Part shown: piece after piece, positions 18,001 through 24,000 of the stretch | How positions within the stretch are numbered: the first letter of the stretch is position 1 | How the letters are laid out: each line of letters opens with the position of its first letter | Origin: a phage | Length of the DNA: 64,000 nucleotides | Direction: 5' to 3' (one strand) | Sequence record: PZ674596.1 | Position numbers: made by a program

Positions 18001-21000
18001 CGATTAATTCAGGATATTGCCGGTGCATTCCGCGGCATGGTGTTTTGGGCTGGTGGCATGGTTAACATCATGCAGGATAGCCCATCAGATCCGGTAATGA
18101 TGTTTACCAACTCCAACGTCAAAGATGGACTGTTTACCTATAAAGGTTCTGCGCGTAAAGATCGCCCATCCGTTGCGCTCGTAACCTACAACAACAAGGA
18201 GGACGGTTATAAGCAAAACATCGAGTACGTTGAAGATCAGGACGCAATGCGCCGTTATGGTGAGCGTAAAACAGAAGTCGTAGCATTTGGATGTACAAGC
18301 CGAGGCCAGGCTCACCGAGTTGGTTTGTGGCTTTTGTATACCGCCAGAATGGAGTCGGATGTAATTACATTTACTGCCGGCTTAGACGCCTCATTTCTGA
18401 TGCCTGGTGAAACCGTTCTGATTCAGAACAAATATCGTGCAGGTAAACGTAACTCCGGTCGAATTGTGGAGTTTACCAAAAACAGCATCACTCTCGATGC
18501 GCCTGTGTCGTTAGCTAAAAGCGGCAGCTTTATTCGGATATTGAATCAGGAAGGCAAAATCGTTGAACGCGATGTTCTTGAAACTGGCGAAAACATAACA
18601 AAGGTTACGTTTTCAAAAGCCCTGTCGTCAGCGGAAACGCCTGTTTTGAACGGTGTCTGGACAATTACAGAACCAGATCTCGAACCTATGCGCGTTCGCA
18701 TCGTTAACATCGCACAGGGGGAAACGTCGGGTAGCTTTGACATCACCGCTGTTGAGAACAATCCGTCTAAATATGAGGCAATCGACAATGGTGCAACGCT
18801 GATCCCGCAGAATACGACGGTATTGGACCCAACTTACTCCAAGCCATCTAATCTGCAAATCACTGAAGGGACTTATCTCTCAAGCCCGGGCAACCTGTCA
18901 GTAAAACTGACTGCAACATGGGAAGGGAAATCTCCAGAGTATTGGATCAGTTGGCGACGTTCTGATGAAAACAATGTATCGAACTGGCAATCGGCGCGTG
19001 TAACCGAAGAGCAATACGAAATCGTTAATGTCGCGGAGAATGGACGCTACGACTTCCAGCTGTATGCGGTTTCATTCAACGGTAAAAAAACAGAGATTAT
19101 CAGTACCGTTTATCAGGTGTTGGGCACAATGACACCGCCTGATGCCCCAACGTCATTAACGGCCGTTGGAGACTATCGTAATGTGATACTGAATTGGGTT
19201 AATCCAGATTCGGTAGACCTTGATCACATTAATGTTTACGCATCACAGACCAACAATCTGGATACGGCGAAACTGATCGCAGAGTCTGCAAGCACCACCT
19301 TTACACATGCTGGTCTTGGGGATAGCGAAACGTGGTATTACTGGGTTCGAGCATCGAACAAGCGAGGTATGTTAAGTCCTCCGAACTCAAACTTGGGTAC
19401 AGAGGCGACAACTCGCGATGTACTGTCGTTCCTGACTGGCAAAATTACATCTTCCGAGCTTGGTCAGGCTCTGCTTGAGGACATCAACAGCAAAGTCTCT
19501 CAAGAAGCAGTTGACGAGTTAAATGAGCATATCAACCAGAGCGTCGAATCTTTAGAGGGGGGGGTAAACGACGTTAAGGAAGATATAGCTGAATTAGATA
19601 AGCAGTTCAGCGATAACCTCGCGGGTTTTGAAATAAAATTCAACGAGCGTAGCGATGCTTTGGAGAACGCACAAACCGAGCTTAAAGGTGAGGTTTCGGC
19701 AACGATTAACAAGGTCAATGAAGCGTTTGAAAAAATTGATGCTACTGATGCTGCAATTGTTGAAATCGAAAACACCGTATCTGAACACGATAAAGCTCTC
19801 GCTAATACAGTCGAGGCAATAAAGGCTGCAAGAGATGAAGCGGCGGCTCTTATTGCTAAGGAAAGCGAGGCTCGTGTTGAAGGTGATGCTGCAAACGCTA
19901 AACAACTGGAAGTGTTGCAGTCAACGGTAGAGGAAAGCTCCGCTGCCGTTGAAGAAATGAAAAAGACGGTTGCAGAGGTCGATCGTGCCAGTGCAGAACT
20001 GACTACGAACATTGAGGCTTTGGCCAAAACAAATATTGACCTGGCTCTTCGTCAAGATGAAGACCAGCACAAGCAGATGGTCAATAACGCGAAGATCGCA
20101 ACAACACAGAAAACCTTTGCTGATGATATGTCTGCAATGGCCACGAAGGTTGAGGAAATTCGCGTAGAAATTGGCGAAGACATTAAGGCCAGTATTCTGG
20201 AAGAGTCCACCGCTCGTGCCGATGGCGATGAAGCGTTGGCAAAGCGTGTCACTCAGCTGCAATCTAAGTTTGAAGGAGATATCAGCGCGGCGATTAGTAC
20301 AGAGCAGGAGGCTCGTACATCTGCCGATGAAGCTCTGACGACACAGATCACTCAGCTTGAGTCGAAAGTAAGCAACGATATCGTCGCAGCTATTAAGGAA
20401 GAGCAAGAAGCCCGAGCAACGGAAGATTCGGCTCTGGCAAGCCAGATCACCCAACTTCAGGCAAAGGTTGATGATGATATTTCTGCTGCAATACGTAGTG
20501 AGCAGGAGGCCCGAGCAAGCGGGGACTCTGCGTTAGCCAAACAAATAAACCAGCTTCAGTCAAAGGTTGACGGTGATATATCCGCTGCCATCACTCAGGA
20601 GCAGGAGGCCAGAGCAAGTGCTGACCAGGCGCTCTCACGAGAAATTAACAGCCTGCGAGCACAAACCGGAACTGATATTGCCGCAGCGGTTGCTGTAGAG
20701 ACAAAAGCAAGGACTGATGCCGATAGTGCATTGTCTACCCAGATTACGTCTCTTACAGCAAAAGCTAATGATCTCAAGGCGTCTCTTGCCAGAGAAACAA
20801 CGGCTCGTGCAGATGGTGATACCGCTTTAACAAAAGAGGTTTCAAGTTTAAAAGCACAGACAGCGAAAGATATTAGTGCGGCCGTTGCAGTTGAAACGCA
20901 GGCTCGAACTGATGCTGACTCGGCGTTGTCGTCTCAGATCACCAAGCTGACCTCTCAATACAAAGAGGATATTAAAGCGGCTGTAGCAACCGAAACGAAA

Positions 21001-24000
21001 ACGCGTACAGAGCAAGATGCTGCATTGGCGACTCAAATCACAAACTTAGAGTCTCAAACGGCAGCCAACATTTCCGCGGCGGTCACAACTGAAACGACAG
21101 CGAGAACGCGGGCAGATAATGCTCTGAGTGGGCGAATCGATACTCTGAAAGCAGAGGTGAATGGAAATACCGCGACAATTCAACAGCAGGCAACAGCTAT
21201 TGCTGATACCAACAAAAAAGTGTCAACCGCGTGGACGTTGAAAATGGAGACTTCAACGAGCGGAGGGCAGAAGTATGTTGCCGGTATTGCGCTTGGTATT
21301 GACACCACTGGGCTATCTCAGTTTTTGGTTCAGGCGGACAGGTTTGGTTTGGTCAACTCTGTTAACGGGAAGATCACAACGCCATTTGTTATCGAAAACA
21401 GTATCGCCTATATGAATGGAGCGTATATCAAGGATGGCACAATCACCAATGCAAAAGTAGGCGATCTGCAATCTACCAATTTTGTTAGCGGTAGATCTGG
21501 ATGGCGATTCGGCAAAAATGGAACGCTTGAGATCAACGGTAATAGCGGCGGCAATGGGCGATTGGTTATAAATGGTCAGCGGATTGACGTTTATGACGAT
21601 AACAACGTCTTACGAGTAAGAATTGGCCGTCTGTGATGGTGGAAAAAAAAATTTATATCGGTAAAAATAGGTAAGTATCTACTTAATGGCGGGCAAGGAT
21701 AGCCCGCCAAATCAAGGAGCATATTCAACATGTGGTACAGGGAAGGTACTATCACATTTACACAGGGCAGCAATACTCTGGTTGGGGCAGGGACAGCCTG
21801 GAACGTAACAGCTAATGGTGTGTTGCCGGGGATGATCGTCATTGGCCCCGACAATAAGCTGTATGAGATCAAGCGCGTAACCAGTGATACGAACATTGTT
21901 CTCTCAGAACCTTATACCGGCGAAACTCAGTCTGAAGTTCCGTGCCGAATCATTACGACCTATGAAGGCGACTTAACACAGTTTAGCGCGCGCTTTACTG
22001 CGCTAATGTCGCGTATGTCGGCTGATTCCAAGTCCATACGCAGTTGGTTGACTGCGCTGGATGAGGTGACAATCGAGCGTGAAGACGGTACAGAAGTGAC
22101 CGTTAAGCCGCTAATGCAGATCGTCAACGAGCACAACGAAAACGTTGAGTGGTATAAAAATAACACTGACGCGATTGATGCTGCTGGCGACAAAGCTCGT
22201 GAGGCGGCGGCCAGTGCTGCCGCAGCAGCAAAAAGCGCCAATGCCGCTGGAGAAAAAGCCTCTCAAGCGTCTCAAAGTGCATCCGCTGCGGCATCCTCAC
22301 AAAGTGCCGCAAGTGCGAGTGCAACTGCTGCGAAAAAATCTGAAACGAATGCTGCAGCGTCACAAAAATCTGCAGCCACTTCTGCATCCACCGCGACCAC
22401 GAAGGCGTCAGAAGCTGCCACCTCAGCCCGGGATGCGGCGGCCTCAAAAGAGGCAGCGAAATCATCAGAAACGAGCGCAGCCTCGAGCGCCAGTAATGCC
22501 GCTTCCTCGGCAACGGCGGCAGGAAATTCCGCGAAGGCGGCAAAAACGTCCGAGACGAACGCCAGGTCTTCTGAAACGGCAGCGGGACAGAGCGCCTCGG
22601 CTGCGGCAGGCTCAAAAACAGCGGCTGCGTCGTCTGCCAGTGCCGCGTCAACAAGTGCCGGGCAGGCCTCAGCCAGTGCCACCGCCGCCGGAAAATCGGC
22701 AGAAAGTGCCGCATCGTCTGCTTCAACTGCCACAACGAAGGCTGGCCAAGCCACTGAACAGGCCAGCGCAGCAGCGAGGTCTGCTTCCGCAGCGAAGACA
22801 TCCGAAACGAACGCGAAAGCGTCGGAAACCCGTGCAGAATCCTCAAAAACGGCAGCCGCATCGTCCGCCAGTTCGGCGGCGTCATCGGCATCATCGGCGT
22901 CTGCTTCAAAAGATGAGGCGACCAGACAGGCGTCAGCAGCGAAGGGCAGCGCCACGACGGCATCCACGAAAGCAACAGAGGCGGCAGGCAGTGCGACGGC
23001 AGCATCTCAGAGCAAAACTGCTGCTGAATCCGCTGCGACCCGTGCGGAAGCTGCTGCTGATCGTGCTGAAGAGATTGCCGGTGCAGTTGCGATGGAAGAC
23101 GCAAGCCTTACAACTAAAGGTGTTGTGAAACTTAGCAGTGCTGTCGACAGCACCAGTGAATCGCTGGCCGCAACGCCAAAAGCAGTTAAAGCAGCCAATG
23201 ACAATGCGAATAGCAGGGTGCCATCTAACCGAAAAGTTAACGGTAAAGCACTGACTGCGGATATCAAATTAACGCCGAAAGATATTGGTACTTTAAATTC
23301 AGTAACGATGTCTTTCTCTGGCGGGGCAGGGTGGTTCAAACTGGCTACGGTTACCATGCCACAAGCGAGTTCCATCGTTTACATCGCATTGATTGGTGGC
23401 GCTGGTTACAACGTCGGCTCCCCACATCAGGCAGGCATTTCAGAACTGGTTCTACGAGCAGGCAATGGAAACCCCAAAGGGATTACAGGTGCTTTGTGGA
23501 AGCGTACAGCTGTCGGATTAACGAATTTCGCCTGGATCAACACATCCGGCGATACATATGATATTTACGTTGAGATTGGCAATTATGCGACTCGTGTAAA
23601 TATCCATTGGGATTGTACTGCAAATGCGACAGTTTCTATTTATACATCGCCAACATATTCAGCGAGTAAGCCTTCCAGCGTTACCGATGGTGTTGTTTAT
23701 ACGATGTATAGCACACATCAGAAACCGACGCCGTTAGATATTGGAGCACTGCCAACAACCGGAGGAACAGTTTCAGGTCCGTTGTCTGTTACAGGTGGAT
23801 TAACTGGTTCATTGAATGGTAATGCAAGTACAGCCACGAAATTGCAGACGGCAAGATCTATCGGTGGAGTTGTTTTCGACGGTTCTGCAAATATTAACCT
23901 TCCAGGTGTAAACACTACGGGTAATCAGAACACCACTGGTAATGCTGCAACTGCTACAAAACTTCAGACGGCAAGAACTATCGGCGGCGTGAGCTTTGAT

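What the first reader, a model, noticed from the sequence alone, without database searches (positions are those of the whole stretch)
19440..21180. About 570 aa tandem-repeat insert inside the J-like tail tip protein
Roughly 20 consecutive ~27-residue units (EQEARASAD-AL---I-QLQSKVD-DISAAI and variants) form a long predicted coiled-coil not present in lambda J (1132 aa versus 1575 aa here). Repeat number could vary by recombination and change tip length or host range. The antisense ORFs called here by the track are artefacts of the repeat.
Basis: seen in the sequence. Interest (0 to 1): 0.45.

Follow-up and report, generated by a model that had tools for sequence, protein, structure and literature searches.

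The report
Repeat-built helical shaft in tail-tip fibre
The tail-tip protein of this SSU5-like phage-plasmid carries a roughly 570-residue helical shaft, ending in ten 33-residue repeats, that is related to the F-pyocin fibre segment recently reported to refold and open the tail on cell contact; it is a long, regular example of a known kind.

Summary
The insert is real. The J-like gene (16912..21636, 1574 aa) aligns to lambda J on both sides of aa 858-1419, where lambda has about 6 residues.

The repeat description needs correcting. The period is 33 aa (99 nt), not about 27, and there are 10 clear units (aa 1098-1426, nt 20203-21189), not about 20. The preceding 250 aa is proline-free, has a helix-type hydrophobic period and shows no significant periodicity. 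DNA identity between units is only 40-70%.

Unit number does vary among SSU5-like relatives: 4, 5, 6, 9 or 10. One >=95%-identical plasmid lacks exactly 99 nt.

[quoted passage not shown] It is homologous to the F-type pyocin central-fibre coiled coil, which a 2026 preprint showed switching to a beta-prism and opening the tail tip. Each unit here carries that paper's SxSxxMxxLxS motif twice, in opposite orientations, with the Glu-Arg i+4 pair. Its conserved small residues sit on the outer helix face.

Fold switching in this protein is inferred, not shown: monomer AlphaFold gave helices only. The unit family is widespread (1807 cluster representatives) and also occurs in T7-type fibres.

Verdict: new member of a known kind, moderate interest.

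The parts
16912..21636 (+). J-like tail-tip / central fibre gene (1574 aa from the ATG; the mechanical ORF starts at TTG 16906)
   Evidence: ORF list and translation. Pfam finds FNIII-A_GpJ at aa 101-235, Phage-tail_3 at 357-520, fn3 at 744-823 and Phage_Tail_Tip PF09327 at 1422-1556. It is 97% identical to the 'tail host specificity protein J' of phage Cyrano and 32% identical to lambda J over the hub and FN3 region.
16912..19443 (+). Hub domains and fibronectin-III domains (aa 1-844), collinear with lambda J 3-835
   Evidence: BLASTP versus lambda J, E 1e-118. Matches to solved chains of the F2-pyocin fibre 25vf_A, lambda J 8iyk_J and others over aa 19-858.
19444..20202 (+). Non-periodic shaft segment (aa 845-1097): Glu/Ala-rich, proline-free, helix inferred; degenerate unit traces from about aa 947
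   Evidence: Hydrophobic period 3.56 and composition. No significant repeat lag. One weak unit hit at aa 984-1013. Motif pairs at 947/962, 979/994, 1011/1026, 1060/1075. Only aa 1069-1097 of this segment was modelled, and it came out helical; aa 845-1068 was not modelled.
20203..21189 (+). Array of ten 33-aa (99-nt) units, aa 1098-1426. Unit starts are at nt 20203, 20302, 20401, 20500, 20599, 20698 (96 nt), 20794, 20893, 20992 and 21091. Consensus: E-x-x-A-R-a-x-a-D-x-A-L-a-x-x-I-x-x-L-x-a-x-v-x-x-D-I-x-A-A-I-x-x
   Evidence: Lag-33 identity is 0.476 versus 0.100 in shuffles. Unit table and column composition. HMM scores are 44-60 bits per unit. Hydrophobic period is 3.66, i.e. three hendecads per unit. 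The forward motif at unit position 11 and the reverse motif at unit position 29 occur at 32-33-residue spacing through all ten units. AlphaFold2 predicts helix to aa 1406.
20524..20622 (+). The 99 nt (aa 1205-1237) missing in the near-identical plasmid NZ_CP081792.1: a one-unit deletion fusing units 4 and 5
   Evidence: Global protein alignment. The DNA junction lies at a shared GAC, downstream of the shared word GAGCAGGAGGCC.
21136..21579 (+). Start of beta structure (from aa 1409, inside unit 10) and the central-straight-fibre domain PF09327 (aa 1422-1556). This is the C-terminal beta-prism-like domain and the candidate seed for refolding.
   Evidence: AlphaFold2 with a 79-sequence alignment predicts strands from query residue 341 = aa 1409, with block-mean pLDDT 72-94 over this domain. 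Foldseek matches the lambda gpJ central fibre 8xcj/8xci and the SU10 needle 7z4b_EA. Pfam E 1.4e-41.
21730..25881 (+). Downstream side tail fibre gene (1383 aa); context only, possible partner of the shaft
   Evidence: Pfam finds Gp34_trimer and Peptidase_S74. Solved-structure matches to P1/Mu S-type and T4 gp34 chains. A lambda Stf-like Ala/Ser/Thr-rich stretch is 72% identical over 148 aa.
19500..20454 (-). Three antisense ORFs (19500-20027, 19594-19905, 19921-20454), judged non-coding by-products
   Evidence: They overlap J aa 863-1181. Two antisense frames of the Glu/Ala-rich segment have only 3-4 stop codons per 253 codons. All three start at TTG.
14410..16894 (+). Upstream tail-tip genes in lambda order (M-, L-, K- and I-like ORFs)
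   Evidence: ORF list. The same gene order is annotated in Cyrano, SSU5 and PhiR41_1.

Best explanation
[quoted passage not shown] Three copies of the J-like protein close the tail tip with their hub and fibronectin domains. They then continue as a long, probably trimeric, coiled coil of about 564 residues, which is about 84 nm if fully extended. This shaft carries the C-terminal beta-prism-like fibre domain.

The distal 330 residues are ten 33-residue units. In the helical state each unit is three hendecads, or nine turns, about 4.9 nm long. Leu12, Ile16, Leu19, Val23, Ile27 and Ala30 would form the core, together with a buried Glu1-Arg5 pair.

By homology with the F-type pyocin central fibre, I propose that the array is metastable. 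On receptor contact it would refold, starting from the beta strands at its C-terminal end, into a compact triangular beta-prism. In that state each unit would supply one beta-hairpin: strands at roughly positions 11-23 and 26-6, and turns at the Gly/Asp/Asn-rich positions 24-25 and 7-10. This shortening and sideways displacement would open the tail tip and release the tape-measure protein.

Unit number (4-10 in relatives) would then set both the reach of the fibre and the stroke of the switch.

What is shown here: the insert, the 33-aa repeat, the predicted helix, the homology, the motif and the copy-number variation. What is inferred: trimeric state, refolding and its consequences.
For: 1. 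Architecture: hub, then FN3, then the helical segment, then PF09327.

2. Homology: the C-terminal 735 aa match the solved F2-pyocin fibre 25vf_A at E 3e-24. Window aa about 1274-1546 align to pyocin residues 927-1193, which overlaps the pyocin coiled coil (residues 907-1085). Chains 9l9p_S, 23gd_D and 9ze4_N also match.

3. Published mechanism: He et al. 2026 (PMC12874032) showed by cryo-EM and cryo-ET that the 163-residue coiled coil of the F7 pyocin fibre becomes a beta-prism. Small-to-Gln mutations blocked killing. AlphaFold predicted both folds for 21 of 24 phage homologues. The motif is SxSxxMxxLxS, in the orientation of each strand, with Asp/Glu at M paired to Arg at +/-4.

4. Motif in this array: the forward motif A11-x-a13-xx-I16-xx-L19-x-a21 is present in all ten units. 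The reverse motif A29-x-I31-xx-E1-xx-A4-x-a6 is present in nine of ten. Glu1 and Arg5 are invariant.

5. Conservation: across 145 distinct units from diverse proteins, the six S positions are 95-100% small. Positions 6, 11, 21 and 29 lie 110-151 degrees from the hydrophobic face, so coiled-coil packing does not explain them.

6. Helical state: AlphaFold2 predicts helices for aa 1069-1406, with block-mean pLDDT 80-89 along most of their length and about 46-58 at the two breaks. Strands begin at aa 1409 inside the last unit. The hydrophobic period is 3.66.

7. Modular length change: 4-10 units in relatives, plus an exact one-unit deletion.
Against: - No direct evidence of refolding exists for this protein or any SSU5-like phage.
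- Monomer AlphaFold2, with or without an alignment, gave only helices for the repeats. The trimer prediction used in the paper was not available here.
- The loose motif alone discriminates weakly in an Ala/Ser/Thr-rich sequence: my arithmetic expects about 1.3 chance matches per unit. The shuffle excess (35 versus 12.5 +/- 3.1) is also inflated because the units are copies of one another.
- The units pooled for the conservation count were selected with an HMM built from this window, so the count is partly circular.
- The same unit arrays occur in proteins with a T7 tail-fibre N-terminal domain, and a related coiled-coil plus beta-prism module forms the SU10 tail needle. In those settings opening a siphophage tip is not the role.
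- The pyocin shaft is an irregular heptad coiled coil of 163-178 residues. This one is 3.5 times longer and hendecad-based.
- No PyoF11/F12-like small genes follow J here.
- The key paper is a preprint.
Confidence: 0.58

Rival explanations
1. Static spacer. The array is a stable coiled-coil shaft that holds the distal fibre domain at a set distance and perhaps provides a docking site for the side fibres. Unit number acts as a length ruler, with no refolding during infection.
For: - AlphaFold2 predicts helix with good confidence.
- Unit lengths seen across the family (29, 32, 33, 36, 39 aa) all fit coiled-coil periodicities (inference).
- The same arrays occur in T7-type lateral fibres, and a related coiled-coil plus beta-prism module forms the SU10 needle.
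- F-pyocin side fibres dock on the helical shaft.
Against: - It does not explain near-invariant small residues on the outer helix face, or the Gly/Asp/Asn-rich positions 7-10 and 24-26.
- The homologous pyocin segment does refold, and the refolding is needed for killing.
Confidence: 0.3
2. Constitutive beta structure. In the virion the units already form a beta-prism or beta-helix fibre, and the helix prediction is wrong.
For: AF3 predicted a beta-prism for 30% of the phage homologues examined by He et al.. The composition is rich in Thr, Ser, Ile and Val: Thr is 12.5% in the array.
Against: - Both AlphaFold2 runs give long helices.
- The hydrophobic period is 3.66, not 2.
- There is no proline and little glycine.
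- The pyocin pre-ejection state is a coiled coil.
Confidence: 0.07
3. Contingency locus. The repeat is a rapidly recombining DNA tract that switches fibre length, and with it host range, at high frequency.
For: Unit number differs among relatives, and one exact 99-nt deletion exists in a near-identical plasmid.
Against: - Units share only 40-70% DNA identity and at most 12 identical bases.
- Tandem Repeats Finder detects nothing.
- 12 of the 13 rows listed at 95% identity or above have the same length.
Confidence: 0.03

Closest known systems
F-type pyocin central fibre protein (F7 CFP; F2 PyoF10 / PA0641; PDB 25vf and related)
   Same: Same domain order: J-like hub, FN3 domains, alpha-helical shaft, C-terminal beta-prism domain. 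Sequence match at E 3e-24 over the last units plus the C-terminal domain. SxSxxMxxLxS motif in alternating orientation with a Glu-Arg i+4 pair. [quoted passage not shown]
   Different: The pyocin shaft is 163-178 residues, irregular and heptad-based with a stutter. Here it is about 564 residues, with ten regular 33-aa hendecad-type units. The pyocin has PyoF11/F12 genes after the fibre gene and R-pyocin-like side fibres; here a 1383-aa P1 S / T4 gp34-type fibre follows. This is a phage-plasmid, not a tailocin.
Lambda gpJ (tip attachment protein J)
   Same: Hub, FN3 and central-straight-fibre domains (PF24801, PF13550, PF09327), 32% identity over 840 aa, and the same gene order M-L-K-I-J.
   Different: Lambda has about 6 residues where this protein has about 560. 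Lambda ends in the LamB-binding domain PF12421, which is absent here. He et al. state that lambda shows no comparable extensive fold switch.
J proteins of SSU5, S. Typhi pHCM2, Y. pestis pMT1 and other SSU5-like phage-plasmids
   Same: Orthologous proteins with the same non-periodic shaft followed by 33-aa units.
   Different: They carry 4 (pHCM2, Buttiauxella), 5 (SSU5, Enterobacter, E. coli a7), 6 (pMT1, Citrobacter) or 9 units, against 10 here. Some have an extra 110-150 aa after the fibre domain. Klebsiella relatives have a 4045-aa J without these units.
Phage SU10 tail needle gp18 (PDB 7z4b_EA)
   Same: Coiled coil followed by a beta-prism. It aligns to window aa 1353-1572 and is the top Foldseek hit.
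   Different: It is a 322-aa podophage needle that detaches during infection. It has no J-like hub and no long unit array.
T7-type tail fibre proteins carrying the same unit arrays (metagenomic; PF03906 N-terminus)
   Same: Arrays with 32-36-aa unit spacings (11 units in P0046), some followed by PF09327.
   Different: A lateral-fibre attachment domain replaces the hub, so any refolding there could not open a tail tube.

Membership tests
Lambda J-like tail-tip / central fibre protein | N-terminal hub domains (FNIII-A_GpJ, Phage-tail_3) | tested here: met
   Pfam E 1.1e-29 and 7.5e-34. BLASTP to lambda J at E 1e-118.
Lambda J-like tail-tip / central fibre protein | Central straight fibre domain PF09327 | tested here: met
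   aa 1422-1556, E 1.4e-41. Foldseek matches to lambda gpJ 8xcj/8xci.
Lambda J-like tail-tip / central fibre protein | Position after the M, L, K and I genes and the tape-measure gene | tested here: met
   ORF order in the window matches annotated Cyrano, SSU5 and PhiR41_1.
Lambda J-like tail-tip / central fibre protein | C-terminal lambda-type receptor-binding domain PF12421 | tested here: not met
   Present in lambda J at aa 1001-1132. There is no hit in the window protein, which ends 18 aa after PF09327.
[quoted passage not shown] 2026) | Sequence relationship of the C-terminal ~400 residues to the F-pyocin central fibre | tested here: met
   E 3e-24 to the F2-pyocin chain 25vf_A, covering pyocin residues 927-1193.
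[quoted passage not shown] 2026) | Segment predicted as a helical coiled coil | tested here: met
   AlphaFold2 predicts helices to aa 1406. Hydrophobic period 3.66 and no proline. The trimeric state was not modelled.
[quoted passage not shown] 2026) | SxSxxMxxLxS motif in alternating orientation, with Asp/Glu at M paired to Arg at +/-4 | tested here: met
   The forward copy is at unit positions 11-21 in 10/10 units. The reverse copy is at positions 29-6 in 9/10. Glu1 and Arg5 are invariant. S positions are 95-100% small in 145 units. Caveat: the loose motif is weakly specific in this composition.
[quoted passage not shown] 2026) | Non-switching beta-prism strands immediately after the helix (the seed) | tested here: met
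   Strands at aa 1409-1416, 1419-1431, 1437-1448 and 1454-1463 in the alignment-based model.
[quoted passage not shown] 2026) | Both folds obtained in trimer predictions with deep and shallow alignments | not testable with these tools
   Only monomer AlphaFold2 was available, and it gave helix in both runs.
[quoted passage not shown] 2026) | Experimentally observed refolding on cell contact | not testable with these tools
   This needs cryo-EM or cryo-ET of virions.
F-type pyocin fibre module | PyoF11/PyoF12-like small proteins encoded directly after the central fibre gene | tested here: inconclusive
   By gene order only: the next ORF is a 1383-aa fibre gene at 21730. Homology to PyoF11/F12 was not searched. 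KS9 and Psymv2 relatives do have two small genes after J.
DNA tandem-repeat contingency locus | Near-identical DNA units able to slip or recombine frequently | tested here: not met
   Units are 40-70% identical and the longest shared word is 12 nt. Tandem Repeats Finder is negative.

The most novel reading that the evidence does not exclude
The array is a modular, length-tunable spring. Each 33-residue unit is an independent quantum that converts from about 4.9 nm of helix to one beta-hairpin layer, so unit number sets the stroke and the stored energy of tail-tip opening. The natural series of 4, 5, 6, 9 and 10 units in SSU5-like phage-plasmids would then reflect adaptation to the thickness of the host surface layer: short arrays in pHCM2, pMT1 and SSU5, long arrays in E. 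coli elements.
Probability: 0.2. Interest if true: 0.7.

Novelty: new member of a known kind. Interest (0 to 1): 0.4.

Why it matters
How non-contractile tails obtain the energy to breach the outer membrane is an open question, and the coiled-coil to beta-prism switch of F-pyocins is a recent answer. This protein offers an unusually regular version of that shaft in a real, inducible phage. The same orthologous protein occurs with 4 to 10 units, including in Y. pestis pMT1 and S. Typhi pHCM2. That natural series would let one test whether stroke length or stored energy scales with unit number, and which residues of a unit are needed for each fold. For annotation, it shows that the 'DUF1983 / phage tail protein' length differences in these plasmids are whole-unit changes. 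It also shows that the antisense ORFs here should not be called genes.

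Tried and rejected
- Period-27, 20-unit description: rejected. Identity at lag 27 is 0.053-0.056.
- DNA tandem-repeat detection: nothing at period 99.
- Pfam: no family covers the units.
- AlphaFold2 monomer, single sequence and 79-sequence alignment: helix only for the repeats, so it gives no test of the beta state. Both prediction jobs are now used.
- Supplementary tables of He et al., sought to see whether SSU5 was among their 24 phages: not held. The main text mentions neither SSU5 nor repeats.
- Solved-structure search with the downstream fibre, looking for an F-pyocin-like shaft-docking N-domain: only P1/Mu S and T4 gp34 matches.
- Avs-1 tail-tip paper: not relevant, because its hub lacks this shaft.
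- Link between the window's tRNA genes (Asn, Tyr, Thr, Ser) and codon use in the array: no clear signal beyond Thr/Ser richness of the tail genes.
- Cyrano electron microscopy: the tail is 259 nm against 230 nm expected from the tape measure, but the tip is not described.

Full report
**Source and context.** The window comes from an SSU5-like phage-plasmid.
- The J region is 95% identical in DNA to Escherichia phages CMS-2020a and Cyrano.
- The 3' half of the gene is 100% identical to E. coli plasmid NZ_MG904996.1. Another 164 plasmids are at least 95% identical.
- Annotated relatives show the lambda-like order: tape measure, M, L, K, I, J, side fibre, holin, endolysin. The window's ORFs match this order.
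- Cyrano is inducible and yields siphovirus particles.

**The gene.** One + strand ORF runs 16906..21636. The ATG is at 16912, giving 1574 aa. Pfam finds:
- FNIII-A_GpJ at aa 101-235;
- Phage-tail_3 at aa 357-520;
- fn3 at aa 744-823;
- the central-straight-fibre domain PF09327 at aa 1422-1556.

Nothing in Pfam covers aa 845-1421.

**Is it an insert relative to lambda J?** Yes.
- BLASTP aligns aa 20-858 to lambda J 3-835, and aa 1419-1507 to lambda J 841-931. About 560 residues sit where lambda has about six.
- Lambda's C-terminal LamB-binding domain PF12421 (aa 1001-1132) has no counterpart here.
- The arithmetic fits: 1574 - 560 is about 1014, and 1132 - 132 = 1000.

- Protein autocorrelation over aa 841-1430 peaks at lags 33, 66 and 99.
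- In aa 1098-1426 the identity at lag 33 is 0.476. In 1000 shuffles it is 0.100 +/- 0.016, and the highest value at any lag in any shuffle was 0.181. Lag 27 gives 0.053.
- Ten units are evident, and one of them is 32 aa. Each scores 44-60 bits against a unit HMM.
- Glu1, Arg5, Asp9, Ala11, Leu12 and Leu19 are invariant across the ten units.
- aa 845-1097 has no significant periodicity. It has one weak unit hit at aa 984 and degenerate motif pairs at about 32-33-aa spacing from about aa 947.
- In DNA the units are 40-70% identical, with at most 12 shared bases. Tandem Repeats Finder reports nothing at period 99.

**Copy number in relatives.** Counts use the unit HMM at 20 bits or more.

| Units | J proteins |
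|---|---|
| 10 | window, Cyrano, CMS-2020a (SCU-175) |
| 9 | PhiR41_1, plasmid CT01 |
| 8 strong plus 1 weaker | E. coli 2014C-3307 |
| 6 | Y. pestis pMT1, Citrobacter |
| 5 | SSU5, Enterobacter, E. coli a7 |
| 4 | S. Typhi pHCM2, Buttiauxella |
| 0 | lambda J; Klebsiella pJN2-26 (a 4045-aa J) |

- Spacing is 33 aa throughout the SSU5-like set.
- CT01 (NZ_CP081792.1, at least 95% identical) lacks exactly aa 1205-1237, i.e. 99 nt. The junction lies in the most similar stretch between units 4 and 5.
- Twelve of the 13 rows listed at 95% identity or above, in an evenly spaced sample of the ranking, have the window's length.
- Whole-unit change therefore occurs but is not frequent.

**Predicted structure.**
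- AlphaFold2 on aa 1069-1574 without an alignment gives one long helix and a poor C-terminus.
- With 79 homologues it gives helices to aa 1406. Block-mean pLDDT is 80-89 along most of their length and about 46-58 at the two breaks. The chain folds back on itself, as expected for a monomer model of a trimeric coil.
- The same model gives strands from aa 1409, inside unit 10, through the PF09327 domain. Block-mean pLDDT there is 72-94.
- Foldseek matches the C-terminal part to the SU10 needle and to the lambda gpJ central fibre.
- The hydrophobic period is 3.66 in the array, so 33 residues make three hendecads. It is 3.56 upstream.

**Relation to known structures.**
- The C-terminal 735 aa match several solved chains: the F2-pyocin fibre (25vf_A, E 3e-24, pyocin residues 927-1193), 9l9p_S, 23gd_D and 9ze4_N.
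- Three 2026 papers describe the F-pyocin central fibre as hub, FN3 domains, a long trimeric alpha-helical shaft bearing the side fibres, and a distal beta-prism.
- He et al. [quoted passage not shown] This opens the tip and ejects the tape measure. Gln substitutions at small residues block killing without blocking assembly.
- They define the motif SxSxxMxxLxS, oriented with each strand. S positions are buried in the prism corners but exposed on the coil. L is buried in both folds. M is buried only in the coil and is often Asp/Glu paired with Arg at +/-4.
- They predict the same switch in 21 of 24 related siphophage fibres. They do not mention repeats or SSU5.

**Fit of the 33-aa unit to that motif.**
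- Each unit holds a forward copy, A11-x-a13-xx-I16-xx-L19-x-a21, in 10 of 10 units.
- Each unit also holds a reverse copy, A29-x-I31-xx-E1-xx-A4-x-a6, in 9 of 10 units. Glu1 and Arg5 are invariant.
- The connectors, positions 7-10 and 22-28, are rich in Gly, Asp, Asn and Ser.
- In 145 distinct units from diverse proteins, the six S positions are 95-100% small.
- On a hendecad wheel, positions 6, 11, 21 and 29 lie 110-151 degrees from the hydrophobic face, and positions 4 and 13 flank it. A coiled coil alone does not require small residues there. This is the best sequence evidence for a second structural constraint.

**Caveats on that evidence.**
- By my arithmetic, the loose motif would occur about 1.3 times per unit by chance in this composition.
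- The shuffle excess (35 versus 12.5 +/- 3.1) is inflated because the units are copies of one another.
- The pooled units were selected with an HMM built from this window.

**How widespread is the unit?**
- A full-library search with the array finds 1807 cluster representatives at E <= 1e-3, and 109 at E <= 1e-30.
- Among the 138 newly returned proteins of the 150 listed, unit spacings are mostly 32 aa, then 36, 33, 39 and 29. There are up to 24 units per protein.
- Proteins with a J-like hub carry 3-20 units.
- The arrays also occur behind T7 tail-fibre N-terminal domains.
- A related coiled-coil plus beta-prism module forms the SU10 tail needle.
- Ten units is therefore not exceptional, and the module is a portable fibre-shaft cassette.

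**Interpretation.**
- Most likely (0.58): a trimeric helical shaft, about 49 nm for the array and about 84 nm for all 564 helical residues. It is homologous to the pyocin shaft and capable of the same coil-to-prism switch, with one unit forming one hairpin.
- Main rival (0.30): a static spacer and side-fibre platform.
- Minor rivals: constitutive beta structure (0.07) and a fast-switching repeat locus (0.03).
- Refolding, trimeric state and any host-range effect are inferred, not shown.

**Antisense ORFs.** The three minus-strand ORFs at 19500-20454 overlap J aa 863-1181, mostly the non-periodic segment. There, two antisense frames have only 3-4 stops per 253 codons. They are compositional by-products.

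**Verdict.** This is a new member of a recently described kind. Its main value is the regular unit structure and the natural copy-number series.

Noticed in passing
L009:1-12138 (Klebsiella phage pJN2-26, MZ779062.1): The orthologous J protein of Klebsiella SSU5-like phage-plasmids is 4045 aa. About 2900 aa lie between the FN3 region and PF09327, at the same insertion point. That stretch has none of the 33-aa units but gives an ILEI-domain hit and weak sub-threshold hits to helical families such as SlyX and apolipoprotein.
   Followed up: partly
window 42877-43574: A cluster of four tRNA genes (Asn-GTT, Tyr-GTA, Thr-TGT, Ser-TGA) lies in a 2.8-kb stretch with no ORF of 100 aa or more (40973-43796). 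Short inverted repeats are nearby. I found no clear link to codon use in the tail genes.
   Followed up: partly
window 21730-25881: The downstream 1383-aa fibre gene has an Ala/Ser/Thr-rich stretch that is 72% identical over 148 aa to lambda Stf (orf-401). It also has a T4 gp34-type trimerisation domain and an S74 intramolecular chaperone domain. Long alternative-frame and antisense ORFs (22124-23104 on the minus strand, 22145-23128 on the plus strand) overlap its low-complexity part.
   Followed up: partly
L012:1484-6115 (Y. pestis CO92 pMT1) and L016:984-5366 (S. Typhi pHCM2): The virulence-associated plasmids pMT1 and pHCM2 encode intact-length J orthologues with 6 and 4 units respectively. 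Each has an extra 110-125 aa after the fibre domain.
   Followed up: partly
proteins P0046, P0027, P0073, P0096, P0100, P0112, P0113, P0119: Metagenomic proteins combine a T7 tail-fibre N-terminal domain (PF03906) with the same unit arrays, and in four of the eight with PF09327. The shaft cassette is therefore shared between siphophage central fibres and podophage lateral fibres.
   Followed up: partly
family-wide (138 newly returned proteins among the 150 listed): Unit spacings cluster at 29, 32, 33, 36 and 39 aa, in steps of 3-4 residues, with 32 the commonest. One J-like protein (P0121, 2138 aa) has 20 units, 15 of them in one run.
   Followed up: no
L006 and L007 (Burkholderia phage KS9, Psychrobacter phage Psymv2): In these distant relatives J is followed by two small genes of about 100 and 240 aa, as in F-pyocins (PyoF11/F12). 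The SSU5-like elements instead have a large side-fibre gene there.
   Followed up: no
Cyrano virion (PMC9928086): The measured tail length of 259 +/- 12 nm exceeds the 230 nm expected from the tape-measure length. The tip structure was not described.
   Followed up: no
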